From Candidatus Altimarinota bacterium (GTDB taxonomy: Bacteria; Patescibacteriota; Gracilibacteria; CAIRYL01): DNA of 64,000 nt. Both the position numbers and the translations under genes were made by a program. The notes below the pieces were generated by a model. It ran no database searches, was not told the DNA's origin, and saw nothing but the letters and a program-made list of their open reading frames with translations. Below are positions 2,727 to 63,623 of this stretch, piece after piece. Numbering within the stretch: the stretch's first letter is position 1; every line of letters begins with the position of its first letter. The stretch is taken from contig OZ252287.1 of assembly GCA_965250085.1 (NCBI GenBank), forward strand, positions 512,001-576,000. The letters run 5' to 3'.

Positions 2727-2813
2727 GTGGACGTATTGTGGCAAAAAATAAAAAATTCGGAAAGCATTGTTTTTTTATAACTTTTTTGAGAAAATCCCGC
2801 TGCAATAGAGCGT

Positions 2814-3050
2814 ATGAAGGCTTCTTTTTCTATACTTTGCTTGGCGTTACTTTTCTCTGGATGTATTGCAGAAAAGGAAGCGAATCCTGATGAAGATTTT
2901 GAATCTTTTTATCAGGGGTCTCCACAGGATTTTGTAGAAGAACTCACTCCTCCCAAAAATGATGTAATTGAAAAAACCACTTCCGAATCCTTTGAGTTTT
3001 CTGGAGGCAATAGTGATTGGCAGTGTAGTGTCACTTGCTCTCCCCGTTAG
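2814..3050 (+). CDS. Small putative lipoprotein
   Basis: Signal peptide ending in lipobox LFSGC; C-terminal CxxxC. Confidence 0.5.
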   Translation: MKASFSILCLALLFSGCIAEKEANPDEDFESFYQGSPQDFVEELTPPKNDVIEKTTSESFEFSGGNSDWQCSVTCSPR

Positions 3051-3072
3051 CATATTCTTTTACTTTCTTTCT

Positions 3073-3672
3073 ATGAAAAAATTTCTTTTACTTCCCCTTA
3101 TGATTCTTGCACTTACCGCTTGTTCCCACGTGAAAAATGATACAGGCGAGACGAATGAGCCTCCCTCTTTTGATCAAGCAGCCTCTCCTGAAAGAGGAGA
3201 AGACGTGGCCGTTATTAGTACTCGACTCGGTGATATCACACTTCGACTCTTTCCCAAACAAACTCCCAAAACAGTAGAAAATTTTGTAACACATGCCAAA
3301 AATGGATATTACAACGGCATTATCTTTCATCGAGTGATTCCAGATTTTATGATCCAGGGCGGTGATCCCGATGGCACCGGCCGAGGTGGAGAGAGTATCT
3401 GGGAAGCTGATTTTGAAGATGAATTTGATACAAATTTGAACAATATTCGTGGATCGCTCTCTATGGCAAATCGTGGCCCTGGTACCAACGGTTCTCAGTT
3501 TTTTATCAATCAAAAAGACAATCTCTTTTTGGACAACAAGCACACTGTCTTTGGGCAAGTAATTGAAGGTATGGACGTAGTAGATCAGATTGTTGCACTC
3601 GAAAAAGACGCGAACGATAAGCCGGTAGAAGATATTGAGATGACAATTACAATAGTGAAGCACAAGAATTAA
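3073..3672 (+). CDS. Cyclophilin-type peptidyl-prolyl isomerase, lipoprotein
   Basis: PKTVENF, FHRVIPDFMIQGGDP.G.G.GG, SMANRGP.TNGSQFFI and HTVFGQV motifs. Lipobox LTAC follows start MKKFLL at 3073. Confidence 0.95.
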   Translation: MKKFLLLPLMILALTACSHVKNDTGETNEPPSFDQAASPERGEDVAVISTRLGDITLRLFPKQTPKTVENFVTHAKNGYYNGIIFHRVIPDFMIQGGDPDGTGRGGESIWEADFEDEFDTNLNNIRGSLSMANRGPGTNGSQFFINQKDNLFLDNKHTVFGQVIEGMDVVDQIVALEKDANDKPVEDIEMTITIVKHKN

Positions 3673-8483: not shown

Positions 8484-8653
8484 AGGCTTTGTCCTTTAAA
8501 ATAACGTTTTTATCCTATCACATTTCATAATACTGAAAATATTATTTGCAGGAAAAAATAATTTTTTCTTTATAAAGGCACAACATCCATGCGTATTAAC
8601 TTTTTTAATAGCAAAGAGAATATTGATTTTTATAGGTATCTATAAAAAGTATA

Positions 8654-9363
8654 GGCTCTTGAGTAGAATAATTACTTCAATTATTCTCTTAACATGCTTA
8701 AACACAGTAAAATATCGAATTATAAGATCAAAAAAATATTGAAGTGTTTTTGTGAAGATCTCAATGCATCAAAAACAGCAAATATTCTAGATCTCAATCG
8801 GAGAACGGTTGATCGATATTTTAATATTTTTAGAGAAAAGATTGCAAAGTTCTCTTTAGCACAGTCAAAGAGTTTTGGAGAATTTGAACTTGATGAAAGT
8901 TACTTTGGAGCAAAGAGAGTGAGAGGAAAGAGAGGAAGAGGAGCCGCAGGAAAGACTCCTGTCTTTGGAATCCTTCAAAGAGAAGGAAGGGTATTTGTTT
9001 CTATTGTAAAAGATTGCTCCAGAAAAGAGCTCCTACCTATTATTCAAGGAAAAATACTAGAAGGATCAACTATTCATACTGATGGATGGAGAGCTTATGA
9101 TGGACTCATTCTCAATGGATATGATCACTATCGTATTCATCACTCAGAAAATGAATTTGCACGAGGAAAATGTCATGTAAATGGTATTGAATCCTTTTGG
9201 TCTTTTGCGAAAAGAAGACTCTCTAAGTTTAACGGAATTGCTTCTCACAAGTTTAACTTTCACCTCAAAGAATGTGAGTGGCGATGGAACTATAAAGATC
9301 AAGATATTTTTGTTATAATGTCCAAAATTATCAGAGATTTTTAAAATCTCCTACTCTAGAGCC
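8654..9363 (+). mobile_element. IS1595-family insertion sequence, copy 1 (710 bp)
   Basis: Terminal inverted repeats GGCTCTTGAGTAG / CTACTCTAGAGCC; 8-bp target duplication AAAGTATA; identical by eye to 62806-63515. Confidence 0.95.
8694..9344 (+). CDS. IS1595-family (ISXO2-like DDE) transposase
   Basis: ELDESYFG, GKRGRGA.GK.PVFG, IHTDGW.AY and HVNGIESFWS motifs. Confidence 0.95.
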   Translation: MLKHSKISNYKIKKILKCFCEDLNASKTANILDLNRRTVDRYFNIFREKIAKFSLAQSKSFGEFELDESYFGAKRVRGKRGRGAAGKTPVFGILQREGRVFVSIVKDCSRKELLPIIQGKILEGSTIHTDGWRAYDGLILNGYDHYRIHHSENEFARGKCHVNGIESFWSFAKRRLSKFNGIASHKFNFHLKECEWRWNYKDQDIFVIMSKIIRDF

Positions 9364-9371
9364 AAAGTATA

Positions 9372-10031
9372 TTAGTTTCGGGAAAGTGAAAGCATAAAGA
9401 TCAGCATGTCCTTAAACAGAAGTATCATATCCAGAAATAGACTCAGTGCCGCATAAATGGGATTGGGATATCGTCCTTTTTTTATGTTTTGAATATCATA
9501 GGCGGCAAATGCAGAAAACAGAATAACTCCAATGGCGGATGAAACCAATTGTACTGTTCCTGAAAACCAAAATATTTGTAAAATCCCTACGATAATAAGC
9601 CCAATGAGTGCCATCAGGAGAAACCCTCCCCATCCAGAAAGATCTTTTTTTGTCGTAAATCCCCACAATGCAGATGCAGCAAACATACAGCCAGAGGCCA
9701 CAAGTGCCTTGAGCACCAACCCTGCTTGTCCAGTCCCTACGGCATACGCCACTACGGGAAACGTGCTAATTCCCATGAGAAGAGCAAAGAGTCCAAACAT
9801 GGGAATTGCCCACCTGCGACTTTCGCTCCATTTGCCTGCGGTAAAAATAATGACAAGAGTAACCGCAAATAAAACCCATAAAAACCACATACCAGTGAAT
9901 TGAAGAATATAACCCGCCACAAAGACTCCAAGGGCACTGATCCCTATTGCGAGTGCAAAATATGCCCAGGTGGCAGAAAGAAAGCTCGGCGTGACCTGAG
10001 TCTGGGAAGGGTATGAAAGAGGATTGTTCAT
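9372..10031 (-). CDS. Bax inhibitor-1/YccA family membrane protein
   Basis: Seven TM helices; TKKDLSGWG, AYDIQNI and AALSLFLD motifs. Probable start MNNPL at 10031. Confidence 0.88.
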   Translation of the reverse strand: MNNPLSYPSQTQVTPSFLSATWAYFALAIGISALGVFVAGYILQFTGMWFLWVLFAVTLVIIFTAGKWSESRRWAIPMFGLFALLMGISTFPVVAYAVGTGQAGLVLKALVASGCMFAASALWGFTTKKDLSGWGGFLLMALIGLIIVGILQIFWFSGTVQLVSSAIGVILFSAFAAYDIQNIKKGRYPNPIYAALSLFLDMILLFKDMLIFMLSLSRN

Positions 10032-10107
10032 AAGAATTGTAATAGAGATATAAGAATTGTAATTTCTTTCAAGAAGAAAATCAAAAATATCATCTCCCAT
10101 AAATTCT

Positions 10108-11484
10108 TTATCCGTTTCGGTTCACAAATCCTTCTGGATCTTTCGGATTGTGTACTGCTGCATGTTTCAGGATCCATGCATTTACTTCAGGATATTTCTC
10201 TTTCAGTTCCTCCACTTGCTCCAGCATCTTCTCCACAAATCCTTCTGGATCTTTCGGATTGTTTACTGCTGCATGTTTCAGGATCCATGCATCTACTTCA
10301 GGATATTTCTCTTTCAGTTCCTCCACTTGCTCCAGCATCTTCTCCACAAATCCTTCTGGATCTTTCGGATTGTGTACTGCTGCATGTTTCAGGATCCCCG
10401 CATCTACTTCAGGATATTTCTCTTTCAGTTCCTCCACTTGCTCCAGCATCTTCTCCACAAATCCTTCTGGATCTTTCGGATTGTGTACTGCTGCATATTT
10501 CAGGATCCATGCATTTACTTCAGGATATTTCTCTTTCAGTTCCTCCACTTGCTCCAGCATCTTCTCCACAAATCCTTCTGGATCTTTCGGATTGTTTACT
10601 GCTGCATGTTTCAGGATCCATGCATCTACTTCAGGATATTTCTCTTTCAGTTCCTCCACTTGCTCCAGCATCTTCTCCACAAATCCTTCTGGATCTTTCG
10701 GATTGTGTACTGCTGCATGTTTCAGGATCCCCGCATCTACTTCAGGATATTTCTCTTTCAGTTCCTCCACTTGCTCCAGCATCTTCTCCACAAATCCTTC
10801 TGGATCTTTCGGATTGTGTACTGCTGCATATTTCAGGATCCATGCATTTACTTCAGGATATTTCTCTTTCAGTTCCTCCACTTGCTCCAGCATCTTCTCC
10901 ACAAATCCTTCTGGATCTTTCGGATTGTTTACTGCTGCATGTTTCAGGATCCATGCATTTACTTCAGGATATTTCTCTTTCAGTTGTTTCATCTTTCCTA
11001 TTGTGAAGGACCGAACATATTTGCCCTGAGGACCGTATCTTTGTGTATGAAGAGCTCCTGTTTGCAAAACTGCCTGTTTGGTTACTTCTGTAACAACAGA
11101 TTCCCAATTGCTTCGTATCTCATGTGCCTCTTCCTCATCTATGTATCCTTTGTTGCTTGCGCGTAAAAAAGCTTTTACCAGAGATCGCAGGGCACTCTGA
11201 ATATGAGCAATTTTTTCCTCTCCGCCAGCCAAACGCAACAAAACATCACGACTATTCAGAAGTTGGTGAACCACTTCTTCTGCTGCATTAATATATTGTT
11301 GATCTAATGAAGAAAATACTCCTTTCGTAAAAACATCCGGCTGACGAAAGTATGCCTGAAACTTTTGGAGCAATACAAAAGAATCTTGTAGACGTATATT
11401 GATGTCATCTTGAGCCTCTTCTTGAGGCTCACATACAGCTGGTGCAGGAAAGGCAAGTGACAATTTTTTTTTAGAATACAACAA
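10108..11484 (-). CDS. Hypothetical protein with about 8 tandem 37-aa repeats
   Basis: Unique ~165-aa N-terminus, then LKEKYPEV[N/D]A[W/G]ILK[H/Y]AAV[N/H]NPKDPEGFVEKMLEQVEE repeats. Confidence 0.8.
   Translation of the reverse strand: MLYSKKKLSLAFPAPAVCEPQEEAQDDINIRLQDSFVLLQKFQAYFRQPDVFTKGVFSSLDQQYINAAEEVVHQLLNSRDVLLRLAGGEEKIAHIQSALRSLVKAFLRASNKGYIDEEEAHEIRSNWESVVTEVTKQAVLQTGALHTQRYGPQGKYVRSFTIGKMKQLKEKYPEVNAWILKHAAVNNPKDPEGFVEKMLEQVEELKEKYPEVNAWILKYAAVHNPKDPEGFVEKMLEQVEELKEKYPEVDAGILKHAAVHNPKDPEGFVEKMLEQVEELKEKYPEVDAWILKHAAVNNPKDPEGFVEKMLEQVEELKEKYPEVNAWILKYAAVHNPKDPEGFVEKMLEQVEELKEKYPEVDAGILKHAAVHNPKDPEGFVEKMLEQVEELKEKYPEVDAWILKHAAVNNPKDPEGFVEKMLEQVEELKEKYPEVNAWILKHAAVHNPKDPEGFVNRNG
10123..10983. 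repeat. Coding tandem repeat, 111-bp unit, about 7.8 copies
   Basis: cacaaatccttctggatc occurs at 10123 and 10234 and continues with the same period; units are nearly identical. Confidence 0.95.
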
Positions 11485-26985: not shown

Positions 26986-27081
26986 TTTCTATTTTCCCAA
27001 GAAGATCTTTTTTTATCCAGCAAAAGTAATCCTTCTCAAAAATGAAAAATATCCTTTCTTCTCCAAAAAGACTTGTAAAGC

Positions 27082-27831
27082 CTAAGCCCATGAAACCCTT
27101 AGCGAGCCACGCCACGCCCTAACGCCACTGTGAAAACTGGCATTACCCCGATTCACGCGAACAAGATCACCAGGACGAGAACCATTGAGGGCGTAACCAG
27201 TTTTTCTTGTATCTAAGTTTGTTTTGAGCCAACTCCAAGTTCTTTTGTCAAACCCCCCCTTCTCCTGAAGCACGTCTCTACATTGTTTTGGGGTCATAAG
27301 GTCTATACCCATTGCTTCAGCCATCTCAACAGCATTTCCATTAAACCTTTCATCTGGATGTTTTTCTTTTAACCACGCTGCTGCCTCTTTATCATAGACA
27401 CAGTTCCTTGCACTTTCTGGAGTCTCTTGAGAACATGTACCAATATCAAAACCACTCTCATCAAAGTCATATACATCCGGGGCATGACCTGCTACCTCCA
27501 TCTCATGCACGCTCCACAGTGCCTCAGGATTTGCCTCAAGTGCAGTTTCGACTCTGCTCCATTCGAGATCTTTATGGAGGTGGACATTGTCAGTAAATCT
27601 TGTTCTAAGGGAATCTAAAGTCTTTTTCGCATCCTCAGGCGAGAGTTTGCGCTGAGTTCTGCCTCCTGCTGCTAGCTCCTCCAGTTGTAGTTGTAACATA
27701 GCAATTGCTTCACGGATTCCTGCTTGAACTTCATCGAGATCGTTAATATCGAGCAGGGATTCAAGCTTTTCTGTCGCTGTCTTAATTCCTTGTTCTGGAG
27801 ATCCTGCCATTTGTTCTGGAGAGTCTGTCAT
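27082..27831 (-). CDS. DUF4256-like protein, remote copy of the DGR target
   Basis: Translation identical to 57045-57794. Confidence 0.9.
   Translation of the reverse strand: MTDSPEQMAGSPEQGIKTATEKLESLLDINDLDEVQAGIREAIAMLQLQLEELAAGGRTQRKLSPEDAKKTLDSLRTRFTDNVHLHKDLEWSRVETALEANPEALWSVHEMEVAGHAPDVYDFDESGFDIGTCSQETPESARNCVYDKEAAAWLKEKHPDERFNGNAVEMAEAMGIDLMTPKQCRDVLQEKGGFDKRTWSWLKTNLDTRKTGYALNGSRPGDLVRVNRGNASFHSGVRAWRGSLRVSWA
27093..27200 (-). repeat. DGR variable repeat (remote copy, VR2)
   Basis: 108 bp, identical to VR1, with the same 18 adenine-only differences from TR. Confidence 0.92.
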
Positions 27832-27864
27832 TTGTAAGAGGGGTCAAGTTTTAAAAAGGAGATG

Positions 27865-27893
27865 ATAATATATTGCTATAAATTTTTTGTCAA
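27865..27893 (-). promoter_or_regulatory. Sigma70 promoter of the remote target copy
   Basis: TTGACA-N17-TATTAT on the minus strand. Confidence 0.75.
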
Positions 27894-27992
27894 GACCATA
27901 GAAATATATATGGTCTCCCGCAGTCTCTAGACTTTCTCATGAGTGCCATATACAATGCGCGCAAGGTTTTTTGGCACTTCTTTCAGGTTTAT

Positions 27993-55327: not shown

Positions 55328-56296
55328 TTAAGAGATCAGTTTACACATTTTCCAATGAAACCACTTCAACATTTTCCTGCCACCGTGTTTGGAGATGACC
55401 CCAGAGTAACTGGCAACATTTCTCAAGCTCAATCTGCTGGCAATTCTGGTTTTATTGCGTTTGGTAAGTCTTCTTCCGGAAGACCAGAGTTCAGTACCAA
55501 GAAACTTGAGTCCGTGTTTTGCTTTGAAAATCAGGTCATTTTTCGGATGCAGCGGTAATTTTAGATGTTCTGATACAAAAGCAATTATTTCCGTCCGCAT
55601 ATTTTCTAACTTTTCTTTTTCCATCTCGAACAAGACAAAATCATCGCCATACCGCAGATATGCTTTGGGTTTCTGTATATGCTTCACAAAGCGATCCAGT
55701 TCATTCATGTAAATGTTCGAGAAAATCTGGCTGGTGAGATTGCCGATAGGCATACCGACTTCTTCCTTATGAGTACAGTAGCTCTTGAGTACTTCACGGA
55801 TAATGAGCAGAGCTTTTACATCAGGAACCCTCCTTTTTAGCAATTCAAAGAGTACATTTTGATCGATATTATCAAAAAACTTCCGAATATCCGCTCTCCA
55901 AATGTAGGCACGAGGATACGATTGCAAAAAGCCATGTGTGCGCTCGATTGCTCCCAGCAGTCCTTTCCCTTTCCGGCATGACCAAGCATCATAAATGAAA
56001 GTTTTATCCCAGAGAGGAACGAGGTAGTCATAGAGCAGTCGGTGCACAACGCGGTCGCGAATAGGAGAAACGGAAATTTCCCGTTGTTTGTTATCACAGA
56101 CCGTAAAAGATCTGTACGCACCGTGGCGATATGTTCCTGCATTCAGGTCTTGATACAGCTCAAAAAGACGCTCTTCCAAATGGTACTGAAATTCGTGCAT
56201 CTCTTCTGTTTCCCTTTTTCCTTTCCGAAAGGCAAACCATGCCTTCCAAATATTTTCTAACCCCAAGTTTATGAATTCTTCATTGCCCATTATCAA
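55328..56296 (-). CDS. DGR reverse transcriptase
   Basis: ENIWKAW, K.R.I.....RDRVVH, SCR.GKG, DIRKFF.NI, GMPIGNLTSQ (DGR-type), YLRYGDD and FLG motifs; no maturase or endonuclease domain. Confidence 0.95.
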   Translation of the reverse strand: MIMGNEEFINLGLENIWKAWFAFRKGKRETEEMHEFQYHLEERLFELYQDLNAGTYRHGAYRSFTVCDNKQREISVSPIRDRVVHRLLYDYLVPLWDKTFIYDAWSCRKGKGLLGAIERTHGFLQSYPRAYIWRADIRKFFDNIDQNVLFELLKRRVPDVKALLIIREVLKSYCTHKEEVGMPIGNLTSQIFSNIYMNELDRFVKHIQKPKAYLRYGDDFVLFEMEKEKLENMRTEIIAFVSEHLKLPLHPKNDLIFKAKHGLKFLGTELWSSGRRLTKRNKTRIASRLSLRNVASYSGVISKHGGRKMLKWFHWKMCKLIS

Positions 56297-56618
56297 TAAA
56301 AGTTATGATCTGTATAAGCATTTTACCCAAGTCAATGATCACATGACAAAGAGATGGAGACTGACACTCGGCAAAAGTGCCGAAGACAGCATTCTTACAC
56401 TCCTTGAGCATCTAGTCATGGCAAAAAATGCAGCAAAAACCATGAAAGCTCCATATCTCCTCAAAGCGAGTGGAACTTTGGAAGTTCTTACTTTCAAGCT
56501 CCGCCTTATGTTGGAACTCAAACTGGCAAACGAAACCCGTATCTTCCAACTGCAATCAGAAGCACAAGAGATTGGAAGAATGTTGGGAGGATGGTTGAAA
56601 TCTACACAAAGTATGTAA
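56271..56618 (+). CDS. avd: DGR accessory protein Avd (four-helix bundle)
   Basis: LPI..K.YDL, R.TLG, L..LRL...L and EIGRMLGGW motifs; adjacent to RT and TR. Confidence 0.88.
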   Translation: MNSSLPIINKSYDLYKHFTQVNDHMTKRWRLTLGKSAEDSILTLLEHLVMAKNAAKTMKAPYLLKASGTLEVLTFKLRLMLELKLANETRIFQLQSEAQEIGRMLGGWLKSTQSM

Positions 56619-56724
56619 ACCCTTATCGAGCCACGCCACGCCCTATTGTCATTGTGATTATTGGCATTATTCCGATTCACGTTAACATTATCACCATTAC
56701 GATTACCATTGAGGGCGTAACCAG
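56617..56724 (-). repeat. DGR template repeat (TR), 108 bp
   Basis: Reads GYALNGNRNGDNVNVNRNNANNHNDNRAWRGSIRV with 12 AAY codons; aligns without gaps to both VRs. Confidence 0.95.
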
Positions 56725-56979
56725 CTTGTTGATGAAGTTTATCCGGTACAGACCCACAGTCACAACCATAGTCTGCTTGTAACTTTATCATTTTTCACCC
56801 TGCTTCTCAGGGAAAACTTCACTCAAACCTAAGGGTTTACTACTCTTGAATGTACTTTTTAGGCTTCTTCTTTCATGCAAAGCCCCATTTGTAAAAGAAC
56901 ATTGTACGGTAGCCCCTGCCTAAGCGAGGTTCCTATTCACCGTCAGGAAAAAAGTATATCTGTAAAAATCGTATAAAGA

Positions 56980-57001
56980 AAGACCGCCTCATGGCGGTCT
57001 T
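56980..57001 (-). terminator. Hairpin downstream of the DGR target (terminator and/or retrohoming cruciform)
   Basis: AAGACCGCC-TCAT-GGCGGTCTT, 9-bp stem and 4-nt loop, with a T-rich tail on the minus strand. Confidence 0.65.
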
Positions 57002-57044
57002 CAAGGATAAAGTTAAAGTTTAAGAAAAATTTAAGATTCAAAGC

Positions 57045-57794
57045 CTAAGCCCATGAAACCCTTAGCGAGCCACGCCACGCCCTAACGCCACTGTGAAAAC
57101 TGGCATTACCCCGATTCACGCGAACAAGATCACCAGGACGAGAACCATTGAGGGCGTAACCAGTTTTTCTTGTATCTAAGTTTGTTTTGAGCCAACTCCA
57201 AGTTCTTTTGTCAAACCCCCCCTTCTCCTGAAGCACGTCTCTACATTGTTTTGGGGTCATAAGGTCTATACCCATTGCTTCAGCCATCTCAACAGCATTT
57301 CCATTAAACCTTTCATCTGGATGTTTTTCTTTTAACCACGCTGCTGCCTCTTTATCATAGACACAGTTCCTTGCACTTTCTGGAGTCTCTTGAGAACATG
57401 TACCAATATCAAAACCACTCTCATCAAAGTCATATACATCCGGGGCATGACCTGCTACCTCCATCTCATGCACGCTCCACAGTGCCTCAGGATTTGCCTC
57501 AAGTGCAGTTTCGACTCTGCTCCATTCGAGATCTTTATGGAGGTGGACATTGTCAGTAAATCTTGTTCTAAGGGAATCTAAAGTCTTTTTCGCATCCTCA
57601 GGCGAGAGTTTGCGCTGAGTTCTGCCTCCTGCTGCTAGCTCCTCCAGTTGTAGTTGTAACATAGCAATTGCTTCACGGATTCCTGCTTGAACTTCATCGA
57701 GATCGTTAATATCGAGCAGGGATTCAAGCTTTTCTGTCGCTGTCTTAATTCCTTGTTCTGGAGATCCTGCCATTTGTTCTGGAGAGTCTGTCAT
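57045..57794 (-). CDS. DGR target protein, DUF4256-like with an N-terminal helical extension
   Basis: LSPE....L..L..RF..N...H..LEW..V...LEANPE.LWS..EME..G..PDV, AVEMA..MGI.L and C-terminal RG.LRV motifs. Confidence 0.9.
   Translation of the reverse strand: MTDSPEQMAGSPEQGIKTATEKLESLLDINDLDEVQAGIREAIAMLQLQLEELAAGGRTQRKLSPEDAKKTLDSLRTRFTDNVHLHKDLEWSRVETALEANPEALWSVHEMEVAGHAPDVYDFDESGFDIGTCSQETPESARNCVYDKEAAAWLKEKHPDERFNGNAVEMAEAMGIDLMTPKQCRDVLQEKGGFDKRTWSWLKTNLDTRKTGYALNGSRPGDLVRVNRGNASFHSGVRAWRGSLRVSWA
57056..57163 (-). repeat. DGR variable repeat (VR1)
   Basis: 18 mismatches to TR in 108 bp, every one at a TR adenine. Confidence 0.95.
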
Positions 57795-57827
57795 TTGTAA
57801 GAGGGGTCAAGTTTTAAAAAGGAGATG

Positions 57828-57856
57828 ATAATATATTGCTATAAATTTTTTGTCAA
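57828..57856 (-). promoter_or_regulatory. Sigma70 promoter of the DGR target
   Basis: TTGACA-N17-TATTAT on the minus strand. Confidence 0.75.
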
Positions 57857-57902
57857 GGAAAACTGACCCGAATCACGAAATGGTGTAGTTCTGTAATGAG
57901 GG

Positions 57903-62721: not shown

Positions 62722-62805
62722 AAGAAAAACAAAAAATAGTGGGGGCATTGTGCCGGAAAAGCAACAAAAAGTAAAAAGCAAAAACTGAAAACTATAAATA
62801 TTTAA

Positions 62806-63515
62806 GGCTCTTGAGTAGAATAATTACTTCAATTATTCTCTTAACATGCTTAAACACAGTAAAATATCGAATTATAAGATCAAAAAAATATTGAAGTGTT
62901 TTTGTGAAGATCTCAATGCATCAAAAACAGCAAATATTCTAGATCTCAATCGGAGAACGGTTGATCGATATTTTAATATTTTTAGAGAAAAGATTGCAAA
63001 GTTCTCTTTAGCACAGTCAAAGAGTTTTGGAGAATTTGAACTTGATGAAAGTTACTTTGGAGCAAAGAGAGTGAGAGGAAAGAGAGGAAGAGGAGCCGCA
63101 GGAAAGACTCCTGTCTTTGGAATCCTTCAAAGAGAAGGAAGGGTATTTGTTTCTATTGTAAAAGATTGCTCCAGAAAAGAGCTCCTACCTATTATTCAAG
63201 GAAAAATACTAGAAGGATCAACTATTCATACTGATGGATGGAGAGCTTATGATGGACTCATTCTCAATGGATATGATCACTATCGTATTCATCACTCAGA
63301 AAATGAATTTGCACGAGGAAAATGTCATGTAAATGGTATTGAATCCTTTTGGTCTTTTGCGAAAAGAAGACTCTCTAAGTTTAACGGAATTGCTTCTCAC
63401 AAGTTTAACTTTCACCTCAAAGAATGTGAGTGGCGATGGAACTATAAAGATCAAGATATTTTTGTTATAATGTCCAAAATTATCAGAGATTTTTAAAATC
63501 TCCTACTCTAGAGCC
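62806..63515 (+). mobile_element. IS1595-family insertion sequence, copy 2 (710 bp)
   Basis: Same inverted repeats as copy 1; 8-bp target duplication ATATTTAA. Confidence 0.95.
62846..63496 (+). CDS. IS1595-family transposase
   Basis: Translation identical to 8694-9344. Confidence 0.95.
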   Translation: MLKHSKISNYKIKKILKCFCEDLNASKTANILDLNRRTVDRYFNIFREKIAKFSLAQSKSFGEFELDESYFGAKRVRGKRGRGAAGKTPVFGILQREGRVFVSIVKDCSRKELLPIIQGKILEGSTIHTDGWRAYDGLILNGYDHYRIHHSENEFARGKCHVNGIESFWSFAKRRLSKFNGIASHKFNFHLKECEWRWNYKDQDIFVIMSKIIRDF

Positions 63516-63623
63516 ATATTTAATATCTGTACGCACCAAAGCTTCTTTGGTATGCTGTGGCTCCAGGAAGTGACAAAGACAACAGCTTTTTACTTTCAAA
63601 CTTTCAACTTTTGACCAAAAGTT

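What the first reader, a model, noticed from the sequence alone, without database searches (positions are those of the whole stretch)
56271..56724. Inverted DGR architecture: avd is antisense between TR and RT and overlaps both
Seen: target, TR and RT are on the minus strand, while avd is on the plus strand. Its stop codon (56616-56618) overlaps the TR 3' end, and its start overlaps the RT start head-to-head (56271-56296). Established: in BPP-1, avd-TR-spacer-brt are co-oriented and the spacer RNA downstream of TR is needed to prime cDNA synthesis. Inference: here the RNA 3' of TR is entirely antisense avd, so the same DNA would encode Avd on one strand and the spacer RNA on the other. The avd promoter would have to lie inside the RT gene, and sense/antisense pairing could throttle mutagenesis. 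I cannot confirm whether this layout has been described before.
Basis: partly seen in the sequence, partly recalled or inferred. Interest (0 to 1): 0.8.

Follow-up and report, generated by a model that had tools for sequence, protein, structure and literature searches.

The report
Known CPR-type DGR with upstream primer RNA
This is a real diversity-generating retroelement whose back-to-front avd gene is the layout already catalogued as typical of candidate-phyla-radiation bacteria, and the RNA parts that should prime mutagenic copying appear to lie before the template, not in the antisense of avd.

Summary
The minus strand carries target/VR, TR and RT; avd (56271-56618) is on the plus strand. 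Its stop overlaps the TR 3' end by 2 nt and its start overlaps the RT start by 20-26 nt.

The layout is not new. Wu et al. 2018 (PMC5758913) define Architecture B3, "TR-(avd)-RT", and say it makes up 90% of their CPR set. Among 80 related loci I fetched, avd sits divergent next to RT in 76.

Instead, a conserved, strongly covarying RNA element lies 5' of TR (56729-56943, minus strand). One of its strands pairs with the TR 3' end and, 2-3 nt later, with the segment just 5' of TR. This is the same two-duplex junction seen in the BPP-1 cryo-EM RNP, with the strand order circularly permuted. As reported for BPP-1, this strand matches the VR version better than the TR version. A second, distant B3 subgroup shows the same topology.

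All evidence is computational. I found no paper describing this permutation.

The parts
57045..57794 (-). DGR target gene (DUF4256 family, 249 aa) with VR at its C-terminus
   Evidence: ORF; Pfam DUF4256 E 2.8e-36
57056..57166 (-). Variable repeat (VR); ends 3 codons before the stop codon
   Evidence: 83% identical to TR; 18 of 19 mismatches at TR adenines
57828..57856 (-). Promoter-like site upstream of the target gene (TTGACA-17-TATTAT, 11 of 12); lies inside the 818-bp duplicated segment
   Evidence: consensus match only; duplication limits
56980..57001 (-). 9-bp GC-rich hairpin with a 4-nt loop and a T-rich tail, about 45 nt downstream of the target gene's stop codon. Candidate target-gene terminator and/or VR-downstream stem-loop
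   Evidence: Read; folded
56729..56943 (-). Conserved structured non-coding RNA element 5' of TR (helices H1, H3, H4, a small stem-loop and an A-run); proposed equivalent of the BPP-1 spacer (Sp) RNA
   Evidence: Conserved blocks; RNAalifold; pair counts; coordinates
56829..56838 (-). Bridge block (AAACCCUUAG) that pairs with the TR 3' end. It contains an A invariant across the 19 sequences, at 56830, proposed as the priming nucleotide by analogy with BPP-1 Sp A56
   Evidence: Helix 2: 10 pairs, 8 with changes on both sides, 83.4% of cells paired; the A:U pair is kept in 18 of 19
56814..56826 (-). 5' arm of helix H3 (4 bp, one bulged nt, 8 bp); pairs with 56729-56740
   Evidence: 12 of 12 pairs have changes on both sides, 92.2% paired
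56798..56812 (-). Small stem-loop directly after the H3 5' arm, followed by an A-run (56789-56798)
   Evidence: RNAalifold (3 pairs); same order as the BPP-1 cPRT Stop stem-loop plus adenosines
56754..56771 (-). Hairpin H4, 7 bp, capped by a UGYG tetraloop (UGCG in 16 of 19 sequences; UGUG here)
   Evidence: 7 of 7 pairs have changes on both sides, 91.6% paired
56729..56740 (-). 3' arm of helix H3; its 3' end lies 2 nt upstream of the 111-nt repeat (56727) and 5 nt upstream of the first base shared with VR. Proposed counterpart of the avd strand of the BPP-1 cPRT Stop duplex
   Evidence: repeat limits; compared
56617..56727 (-). Template repeat (TR). Its last 9-10 nt (56617-56626) pair with the bridge block
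56271..56618 (+). avd (115 aa), antisense to the TR/RT strand. Overlaps the TR 3' end by 2 nt and the RT start by 20-26 nt
56320..56349 (-). Promoter-like site inside the avd 5' coding region, 24-30 nt upstream of the RT start codon (TTGTCA-18-TAAAAT, 10 of 12)
   Evidence: consensus match only. The region as a whole has 9 sites against 5.0 +/- 2.2 in shuffles
55328..56296 (-). DGR reverse transcriptase (322 aa; carries the IGNLTSQ and YGDD motifs)
   Evidence: translation; RVT_1; relatives up to 75% identical
27077..27894 (-). Exact 818-bp second copy of the target gene with its promoter-like site (gene 27082-27831, VR 27093-27203); VR identical to the first copy
   Evidence: 818-bp contig at about 2x depth

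Best explanation
This is a bona fide diversity-generating retroelement in a small (1.37 Mb, single-contig) Patescibacteria/CPR-type genome. Its layout is target(VR) - structured leader - TR - (avd, opposite strand) - RT. That is Architecture B3 of Wu et al. 2018, here in an extra-compact form in which avd overlaps TR at one end and RT at the other.

Shown:
- The parts, their strands and their overlaps.
- That the layout is conserved in relatives.
- That a roughly 215-nt element 5' of TR forms four helices with abundant compensatory changes.
- That one strand of this element pairs with the last 9-10 nt of TR and, after a 2-3 nt linker containing an invariant G, with the 12 nt just 5' of TR. TR is therefore looped out between two adjacent duplexes.

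Inferred by analogy with the BPP-1 RNP:
- This strand is the counterpart of BPP-1 Sp 50-70.
- The invariant A (56830), which pairs with a TR uridine (56625), primes cDNA synthesis from its 2'-OH. The first templated base would be TR A56626.
- The flank duplex stops polymerisation at the TR 5' end.
- The primer strand, still attached to the cDNA, guides integration at the VR 3' end, which it matches better than it matches TR.

If this is right, the strand order of the DGR RNA is circularly permuted relative to BPP-1: bridge-loop-flank-TR instead of flank-TR-loop-bridge. No spacer is then needed 3' of TR, which would explain why avd can abut TR tail to tail. The antisense-avd stretch would be at most RT 5' leader or read-through, not a dual-coding spacer.
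For: Parts and overlaps.

Known class: Wu et al. 2018, Fig. 5 legend and text.

Conservation across the 80 genome-contig loci:
- avd is divergent and adjacent to RT in 76 of 80.
- VR-TR lies upstream on the RT strand in 58 of those 76.
- The gap from the TR end to the avd stop runs from -13 to +54 nt (one locus at 121), median 17.

The 5' element:
- Conserved blocks.
- nhmmer finds it only between VR and TR, and it moves with TR in L036.
- RNAalifold recovers H3 and H4 unaided.
- 19-sequence alignment A6: 90.5% of 644 cells paired, against 69.7 +/- 1.1 in shuffles (0 of 500 reach it) and 29-47% with partners slid. 32 of 35 pairs show changes on both sides.
- The bridge:TR-end helix: 8 of 10 pairs with double changes.

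Match to BPP-1:
- Handa et al. preprint, section 7: a template:primer duplex lies next to an 11-bp avd:Sp duplex with one unpaired base, a 2-nt linker and a required G57, followed by a stem-loop and adenosines.
- Where TR and VR differ in the inner six helix columns, the bridge complements VR in 11 of 14 cells and TR in 1 of 14.
- I found the same bias in the BPP-1 record. Naorem et al. 2017 describe it in their Discussion.

Wider reach:
- A distant B3 subgroup of 19 loci: 94.7% paired against 76.2 +/- 1.4 in shuffles, and 17 of 19 pairs with double changes.
- Crude scan: the best bridge site lies 95-140 nt upstream of TR in 43 of 59 loci, and upstream outscores downstream in 48 of 59 (the 43 is my count from its printed rows).
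Against: - There are no expression data, so transcript ends, priming site and activity are untested (one search listed no RNA run).
- The structure strings were written from the window sequence or from L078, and the alignments contain related sequences. Both inflate pair counts somewhat.
- The 19 loci of the distant subgroup were picked from 59 by a motif that came out of my own complementarity scan, so that set is not unbiased.
- The covariance model built on this clade did not reach distant loci: 2 matches in 98 sources.
- In the crude scan only 13 of 59 loci beat all but at most 1 of 100 shuffles.
- Helix 2 has mismatches: 83% of cells paired, and the innermost pair is broken in 7 of 19.
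- The bridge's better match to VR could mean that it pairs with the VR end of the target transcript rather than with TR.
- The two VR copies are identical and no variant contig was seen, so current activity is not shown.
- Handa et al. report Sp-like stem-loops downstream of TR in DGRs that include CPR members. I could not see their supplementary table.
Confidence: 0.7

Rival explanations
1. The RNA 3' of TR, which is antisense avd, is the functional spacer that primes cDNA synthesis. The same DNA would then encode Avd on one strand and Sp on the other, and avd mRNA pairing with it would throttle mutagenesis.
For: - By position it is where Sp lies in BPP-1 (144 nt between TR and brt, nearly all of it required: Handa 2018).
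- There is no non-coding DNA between TR and RT here.
- The 344-nt antisense stretch folds somewhat better than shuffled sequence (z -2.19, 4 of 100 shuffles as good).
- In this clade there is no terminator-like hairpin after TR, so read-through into antisense avd is plausible.
Against: - avd third codon positions are near saturation (about 1.9 bits) along the whole gene, including the last 10 codons, in 74 loci.
- No consensus structure on the antisense or sense strand, in all 74 loci or in the 10 closest.
- For 25 nt before to 100 nt after the TR end, z lies between -1.07 and +1.92 in the 9 closest loci.
- Many of the more distant B3 loci have a hairpin plus U-tract directly after TR, ahead of avd (I did not count them).
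- In L036, TR is followed by antisense RT, not antisense avd.
- The bridge function is accounted for by the 5' element.
Confidence: 0.1
2. The 5' element is real but is not the primer. It would be a leader that regulates the module: its bridge block would pair with the VR end of the target read-through transcript, or the element would act only as an Avd/RT binding platform. Priming would occur some other way, for example from a nicked or terminated RNA 3' end.
For: - The bridge complements VR better than TR in the inner columns (11 of 14 cells against 1 of 14).
- VR lies upstream on the same strand, separated only by a terminator-like hairpin.
- Distant loci end TR with a hairpin plus U-tract, which would give a defined RNA 3' end.
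Against: - BPP-1, where the primer role is shown experimentally, has the same VR-over-TR bias.
- In the outer columns, where VR homology has ended, the bridge pairs with TR rather than VR (7 cells against 4; my split of the rows printed).
- The element stays next to TR, not next to the remote VR copy: the 818-bp duplicate lacks it.
- The junction geometry (linker length, bulged base, following stem-loop and A-run) matches the BPP-1 priming junction.
Confidence: 0.15
3. The inverted avd is an assembly artefact or a local inversion peculiar to this genome.
For: None found. Short inverted segments can be mis-oriented in metagenome assemblies.
Against: - The same orientation occurs in 76 of 80 related loci from independent assemblies, and in 6 loci from the relatives' genomes.
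- One contig covers 54500-57069 with no differences or joints in 4 runs of one sample.
- Both overlapping reading frames are intact.
Confidence: 0.01

Closest known systems
DGR cassette Architecture B3, 'TR-(avd)-RT' (Wu, Gingery, Abebe et al., Nucleic Acids Res 2018, PMC5758913)
   Same: Order and strands of TR, avd and RT. A host lineage of the candidate phyla radiation type. A single adjacent target upstream. [quoted passage not shown]
   Different: This clade is extra-compact. The avd stop overlaps the TR end, whereas the median gap is 17 nt across 58 loci. The avd and RT starts overlap by at least 14-29 nt in the 10 nearest of the 80 loci in which both starts could be placed (L032 could not); further out they range from overlapping to about 80 nt apart. 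In the passages I read, the paper does not discuss where the priming RNA lies.
Bordetella phage BPP-1 DGR (mtd-avd-TR-Sp-brt) and its bRT-Avd-RNA particle (Handa 2018 PMC6182149; Handa et al. bioRxiv 10.1101/2023.10.23.563531; Naorem 2017 PMC5703328)
   Same: - RT plus Avd, and adenine-specific TR-to-VR differences.
- A strand that pairs with the TR 3' end and, 2-3 nt later, with the segment just 5' of TR: 11-12 bp with one unpaired base, followed by a small stem-loop and adenosines.
- An A paired to a TR uridine at the junction.
- A primer strand that matches VR (IMH) better than TR (IMH*).
   Different: - avd is on the other strand and lies after TR, not before it.
- There is no non-coding spacer between TR and RT.
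- The bridging strand lies about 100 nt 5' of TR instead of 50-70 nt 3' of it. The junction is therefore closed through the flank duplex rather than through the template:primer duplex, which amounts to a circular permutation.
- No stem-loop directly after TR was seen in this clade.
Avd / bAvd four-helix-bundle family (Pfam PF22296; NCBIfam NF033474)
   Same: Full-length match to the bAvd profile above Pfam's cut-off. Conserved C-terminal motif (EIGRMLGGW-K) shared with 74 relatives.
   Different: The score is below NCBIfam's equivalog cut-off (58.5 against 80 bits). The gene is antisense to the template strand.

Membership tests
Diversity-generating retroelement (DGR) | Reverse transcriptase of the DGR type near the repeats | tested here: met
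   RVT_1, E 3.9e-17. Relatives returned by the RT search are flanked by Avd and TR/VR pairs. The translation carries IGNLTSQ and YGDD. That (I/L)GxxxSQ marks DGR RTs is recalled, not tested here.
Diversity-generating retroelement (DGR) | Template and variable repeats that differ almost only at template adenines | tested here: met
   111-nt repeat, 83% identity, 18 of 19 mismatches at TR adenines on the minus strand.
Diversity-generating retroelement (DGR) | VR lies at the 3' end of a protein-coding target gene | tested here: met
   VR 57056-57166 lies in ORF 57045..57794; the stop codon follows 3 codons after VR.
Diversity-generating retroelement (DGR) | Ongoing diversification (VR variants within a population) | tested here: inconclusive
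   The two VR copies are identical and no variant contig appeared in 4 runs of one sample. Contigs drop rare variants and no raw reads were available.
Diversity-generating retroelement (DGR) | IMH-like GC-rich end of VR with a stem-loop downstream | tested here: inconclusive
   A GC-rich stretch is shared by the TR and VR ends. A 9-bp hairpin lies about 45 nt downstream of the stop codon. The remote VR copy lacks it. Function not tested.
Architecture B3, TR-(avd)-RT (Wu et al. 2018) | avd between TR and RT on the reverse strand, with no other accessory gene | tested here: met
   Definition read from the Fig. 5 legend and text.
Architecture B3, TR-(avd)-RT (Wu et al. 2018) | Host in the CPR/Patescibacteria, where B3 dominates | tested here: met
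   The nearest RT relatives are titled Candidatus Peregrinibacteria or Gracilibacteria, and most of the 80 are Patescibacteria. The genome is 1.37 Mb. The window's own organism name was not given, so the host assignment is an inference.
BPP-1-type DGR RNA (avd-TR-Sp, spacer 3' of TR) | Non-coding spacer between TR and RT that carries the priming strand | tested here: not met
   The TR-to-RT interval is entirely avd coding sequence on the other strand. It shows no conserved structure or synonymous constraint.
BPP-1-type DGR RNA (avd-TR-Sp, spacer 3' of TR) | Two adjacent duplexes: primer strand with the TR 3' end, and the same strand with the segment 5' of TR | tested here: met
   Helices 2 and 3 covary, but the shared strand is 5' of TR. 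The element therefore works like the BPP-1 RNA without having its strand order.
BPP-1-type DGR RNA (avd-TR-Sp, spacer 3' of TR) | cDNA primed from the 2'-OH of an internal adenosine of that strand | not testable with these tools
   An A (56830), invariant across all 19 sequences, pairs with a TR uridine in 18 of 19. The chemistry needs a bench experiment.

The most novel reading that the evidence does not exclude
DGRs of the B3 class, the dominant kind in CPR bacteria, may use a circularly permuted DGR RNA. In it, the primer/bridge strand and the cPRT-Stop-like elements sit in a leader 5' of TR instead of in a spacer 3' of it. That would free the DNA after TR and explain why avd can be inverted and packed tail to tail against TR. 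It would also mean that downstream-only searches for Sp-like elements in these DGRs look in the wrong place.
Probability: 0.55. Interest if true: 0.7.

Novelty: new variant of a known kind. Interest (0 to 1): 0.5.

Why it matters
The gene layout itself is ordinary for CPR bacteria and should not be reported as new.

What may matter is the RNA. BPP-1 is the only DGR whose priming mechanism has been worked out, and there it depends on a spacer 3' of TR. CPR DGRs are the largest and least studied group. If their primer strand lies 5' of TR, three things follow:
- The BPP-1 junction (template:primer duplex next to a flank duplex) is conserved across very distant DGRs despite a rearranged strand order. 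That would be strong comparative support for the mechanism.
- The minimal RNA for reconstituting or engineering a CPR-type DGR would be leader plus TR, with no coding overlap to worry about.
- The repeated finding that the primer strand matches VR better than TR supports the proposal of Naorem et al. 2017 that the RNA primer sets the direction of homing.

All of this can be tested directly with RT-Avd and two RNA constructs.

Tried and rejected
- **RNA evidence.** The look-up of sequencing runs listed no RNA holder, so nothing can be said about expression. Read laying gave contigs only.
- **Rfam.** Nothing at gathering thresholds in the DGR region. In E-value mode the only match was a chance-level lncRNA hit at E 0.13.
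- **Promoter and terminator scan.** 9 promoter-like sites against 5.0 +/- 2.2 in shuffles, and none within 400 nt upstream of avd on the plus strand. I use these only as weak hints.
- **Synonymous-site test for dual coding in avd.** No constraint found.
- **RNAalifold in codon register.** Empty structure.
- **Covariance model R1, built on this clade.** It found only L123 (E 0.0016) and a weak L070 match (E 0.79) in 98 sources, so it could not carry the structure to distant loci. I used a separate MAFFT alignment of a distant subgroup instead.
- **First bridge scan with RNAduplex.** It timed out. I replaced it with an ungapped scoring scan, which is crude and misplaces the known site in L032, L035, L037, L039 and L041.
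- **Literature not reachable.** Paul et al. 2017 (Nat Microbiol) is not held. Supplementary tables of Wu 2018 and of the Handa preprint were closed; they may list per-DGR architectures and predicted RNA elements that bear on the novelty claim.
- **Searches for prior description.** I found no paper on the antisense consequence or on a 5' primer element in searches (titles and abstract openings in the listings) or in the passages of the papers I opened. This covers only the held library.
- **Rejected outright.** Misassembly or inversion, and the idea that the plus-strand ORF is not an Avd.
Full report
**What is there.** On the minus strand the window carries a DUF4256-family target gene (57045-57794), a 111-nt variable repeat at its 3' end (57056-57166), a template repeat (56617-56727) and a reverse transcriptase (55328-56296). 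On the plus strand, between TR and RT, lies a 115-aa ORF (56271-56618). This ORF matches Pfam bAvd above its cut-off (E 3e-11, 44.2 bits against 40). It also matches NCBIfam DivGenRetAVD at E 6.6e-16, below that model's equivalog cut-off. RT matches RVT_1. TR and VR are 83% identical, and 18 of the 19 mismatches are at TR adenines read on the minus strand. The avd stop (56616-56618) overlaps the last two bases of TR/VR homology. The avd ATG (56271) and the RT start (TTG 56296 or ATG 56290) overlap head to head by 26 or 20 nt.

**Host and copies.** The window lies in a 1.37 Mb single-contig genome. The closest RT relatives (75% and 74% identity) are titled Candidatus Peregrinibacteria and Gracilibacteria, and most of the 80 best relatives are Patescibacteria. 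The genome holds one RT of this kind. It has a second, exact 818-bp copy of the target gene with an identical VR, 30 kb away at 27077-27894. In the contigs of four runs from one sample, this segment is a separate 818-bp contig at about twice the depth of its flanks. A single contig covers 54500-57069 without any difference or joint. I saw no sign of misassembly, but the sample may be the genome's own source.

**Is the layout new? No.** Wu et al. 2018 (PMC5758913; Fig. 5 legend and the text of 'Architectural variations') define Architecture B3 as TR-(avd)-RT, with parentheses marking the reverse strand. [quoted passage not shown] I checked this independently.
- avd is on the opposite strand and directly divergent from RT in 76 of 80.
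- The exceptions are L038, L083, L100 and L107. Only L107 looks like the classical co-oriented avd-TR-RT. In L038, L083 and L100 the TR-(avd) tail-to-tail pair is kept but sits differently relative to RT.
- VR and TR lie upstream on the RT strand in 58 of the 76. The remaining 18 are truncated contigs or loci where no repeat pair of this kind was found.
- The gap from the TR 3' end to the avd stop runs from -13 to +54 nt (one locus at 121), median 17.
- Overlap of the two start codons is a feature of the nearest relatives (L030-L037, L039, L041). The minimal overlap is 14-29 nt in the ten where both starts could be placed. Further out, the starts range from overlapping to about 80 nt apart.

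The window is therefore a compact member of a known, common class.

**Is antisense avd the spacer RNA?** In BPP-1, 144 nt of non-coding spacer between TR and brt are needed, and cDNA is primed from Sp A56 onto TR G117 (Handa 2018, passages). If antisense avd did this job, the avd 3' half should carry extra constraint. It does not.
- In a codon alignment of 74 divergent-type avd genes, third-position entropy is about 1.9 bits along the whole gene, including highly conserved C-terminal glycine and serine codons.
- RNAalifold on the same codon-register alignment gives an empty structure on both strands, for all 74 loci and for the 10 closest.
- For the stretch from 25 nt before to 100 nt after the TR end, folding z-scores in the nine closest loci lie between -1.07 and +1.92.
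- The 344-nt antisense stretch of the window alone folds at z -2.19, which is weak evidence the other way.
- Many of the more distant B3 loci have a strong GC hairpin followed by a U-tract immediately after TR, in the small gap before avd (not counted). This looks like an intrinsic terminator on the TR strand, and it may be the 'stem-loop just downstream of TR' that Handa et al. report for 207 of 278 Avd-containing DGRs.
- In L036, VR and TR lie downstream of RT on the other strand, so the DNA 3' of TR there is antisense RT rather than antisense avd.

**What I found instead.** The 328 nt between VR and TR are non-coding, and the 273 nt just upstream of TR (56728-57000) fold well (z -2.88, 0 of 200 shuffles as good; this stretch includes the post-gene hairpin). 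Aligning this interval among the nine closest loci showed conserved blocks. An nhmmer profile of them hit only the VR-TR interval, always on the TR strand. That includes L036, where the module has moved, and 12 further loci from metagenomes and relatives' genomes. RNAalifold recovered, unaided, a long-range helix and a tetraloop-capped hairpin. On a 19-sequence MAFFT alignment of leader plus TR (A6), I counted a four-helix structure:
- 90.5% of 644 cells are standard pairs, against 69.7 +/- 1.1 in 500 shuffles (none reach it) and 29-47% when partners are slid by 1-3 columns.
- 32 of 35 pairs show changes on both sides.
- H3 (56814-56826 with 56729-56740; 12 bp with one bulged base) has 12 of 12 covarying pairs. 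Its 3' arm ends 2 nt before the 111-nt TR repeat.
- H2 pairs a conserved block (56829-56838) with the last 9-10 nt of TR (56617-56626). 8 of its 10 pairs have double changes and 83.4% of cells are paired.
- An invariant A (56830) pairs with a TR uridine in 18 of 19 sequences. A 2-3 nt linker with an invariant G follows, and then H3 begins.
- After the H3 5' arm come a small stem-loop (56798-56812) and an A-run.

[quoted passage not shown] In that second duplex, Sp 59-70 pairs with the avd segment just upstream of TR: 11 bp with one unpaired base. Only two nucleotides (Sp 57-58, G57 required) separate the two duplexes. A short UNCG stem-loop and adenosines that make A-minor contacts follow, and TR is looped out between the duplexes. 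The element here has the same strand polarity, linker, bulge, following stem-loop and adenosines. The difference is that the shared strand lies about 100 nt 5' of TR instead of 50-70 nt 3' of it. Writing F for the 5' flank, T3 for the TR 3' end and B for the bridge, BPP-1 reads F-TR-T3-loop-B and this element reads B-loop-F-TR-T3. That is a circular permutation.

A second, independent parallel concerns TR against VR. In the inner six columns of H2, at positions where TR and VR differ, the bridge complements the VR base in 11 of 14 cells and the TR base in 1 of 14. WIN and L036 each have two VR copies and are counted once. I split the columns into inner and outer from the printed rows. In the BPP-1 record, Sp 45-56 pairs with 11 of 12 VR positions but only 8 of 12 TR positions. 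Naorem et al. 2017 note exactly this in their Discussion and propose that the cDNA-linked RNA primer pairs with IMH to direct homing. The window's most 3' A-to-N difference (TR A56626, C in VR) lies immediately 5' of the uridine paired to the invariant A. The two adenines 3' of that uridine are unchanged in VR. This fits initiation at that point, but it is a single observation.

**Generality.** A crude ungapped scan of 59 B3 loci looked for a strand that pairs with the TR 3' end and, within 1-7 nt, with the TR 5' flank.
- The best site fell 95-140 nt upstream of TR in 43 of 59. This is my count from the rows the call printed; a window of that width would take roughly 15% by chance.
- The upstream region outscored an equal length downstream in 48 of 59.
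- Only 13 of 59 beat all but at most 1 of 100 shuffles, and the scan misplaces the known site in five loci of the close clade.

From its output I picked 19 distant loci (RT 35-41% identical to the window's) that share a junction motif. I aligned them with MAFFT and counted two helices: 94.7% of 357 cells paired against 76.2 +/- 1.4 in shuffles (0 of 500) and 33-56% when slid, with 17 of 19 pairs showing double changes. This set was chosen using the feature that I then counted, so it shows that the topology exists beyond the close clade, not how common it is. The covariance model built on the close clade did not reach these loci. The one classical co-oriented relative (L107) has a roughly 185-nt non-coding stretch between TR and RT, with hairpins and, by eye, complementarity to the avd 3' end. 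That is the expected contrast, but it is a single locus and I did not test it formally.

**How it most likely works.**
- Shown: the parts, the conserved layout, the covarying leader, and its two adjacent duplexes around TR.
- Inferred by analogy: RT-Avd binds this RNA, and the A at 56830 primes cDNA from its 2'-OH opposite TR 56626. Synthesis runs to the H3 duplex and stops. The primer strand, still attached to the cDNA, anneals to the VR 3' end and guides replacement of VR.
- avd and RT are probably expressed from promoters inside each other's 5' regions. A 10-of-12 promoter-like site lies inside avd, 24-30 nt before the RT start. No convincing site was found for avd.
- In this clade a TR transcript may read through antisense avd into RT. 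That leaves room for antisense interference with avd mRNA, which is untested.

**Verdict.** The finding as posed, a possibly undescribed inverted architecture, is already known and common in CPR bacteria. The proposed dual-coding spacer is not supported. The follow-up yields a well-supported structured leader and a plausible, testable and, as far as my searches reach, undescribed circular permutation of the DGR RNA (searches; the supplements of Wu 2018 and of the Handa preprint and the Paul 2017 paper could not be seen). There are no expression or biochemical data.

Noticed in passing
window 27077-27894 and 57040-57857: Exact 818-bp duplication of the DGR target gene together with its promoter-like site. 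The VRs are identical, and the segment is at about 2x depth in the contigs of one sample. The remote copy lacks the downstream hairpin and the leader element. Identical VRs suggest a very recent duplication or gene conversion, or little current DGR activity.
   Followed up: partly
L111 (own genome, G000:C1:150758-150828, minus strand): A 71-nt stretch 86% identical to the region just downstream of VR, including the hairpin. It follows a short ORF whose C-terminus resembles the VR end, next to an RHS-repeat protein. It could be a relic of a former target. It was not matched by TR at E <= 10.
   Followed up: partly
L036:3596-4099 (Candidatus Peregrinibacteria MAG contig): The VR-leader-TR module lies downstream of RT on the opposite strand, while avd stays divergent from RT. 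This is a natural rearrangement that separates TR from avd.
   Followed up: partly
many loci among L040-L109, directly after TR (for example L066, L070, L078): A strong GC hairpin followed by a U-tract sits in the 15-54 nt gap between the TR 3' end and the avd stop. It looks like an intrinsic terminator on the TR strand. It is absent in the window's clade.
   Followed up: partly
L083, L100, L038: Loci where RT is placed differently but TR and avd still abut tail to tail. The convergent TR-(avd) pair therefore seems more conserved than the divergent avd-RT pair.
   Followed up: no
own genome G000:C1:480610-480927 (outside the window): A second bAvd-like ORF (PF22296, 56.7 bits) scores higher than the DGR's own avd. 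The RT search of the own genome found only the window's RT, so no second DGR RT accompanies this ORF.
   Followed up: no
window 8640-9364 and 62792-63516: Two 725-bp copies, 99.4% identical, each encoding a 216-aa IS1595-family (ISXO2-like) transposase.
   Followed up: partly
window 10012-11088: About nine tandem copies of a 111-nt (37-aa) unit, 97-100% identical, inside a 458-aa ORF on the minus strand (10108-11484). Pfam gives only spurious repeat-driven matches.
   Followed up: no
window 56339-56791 (minus strand): A 150-aa ORF runs through the A-run of the leader, TR and antisense avd. It has no family match and is best read as an artefact of the TR reading frame, not as a gene.
   Followed up: partly
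L200 (BPP-1 record) 2743-3576: Sp 45-56 pairs with 11 of 12 positions of VR but with 8 of 12 of TR. This reproduces the remark in the Discussion of Naorem et al. 2017.
   Followed up: yes
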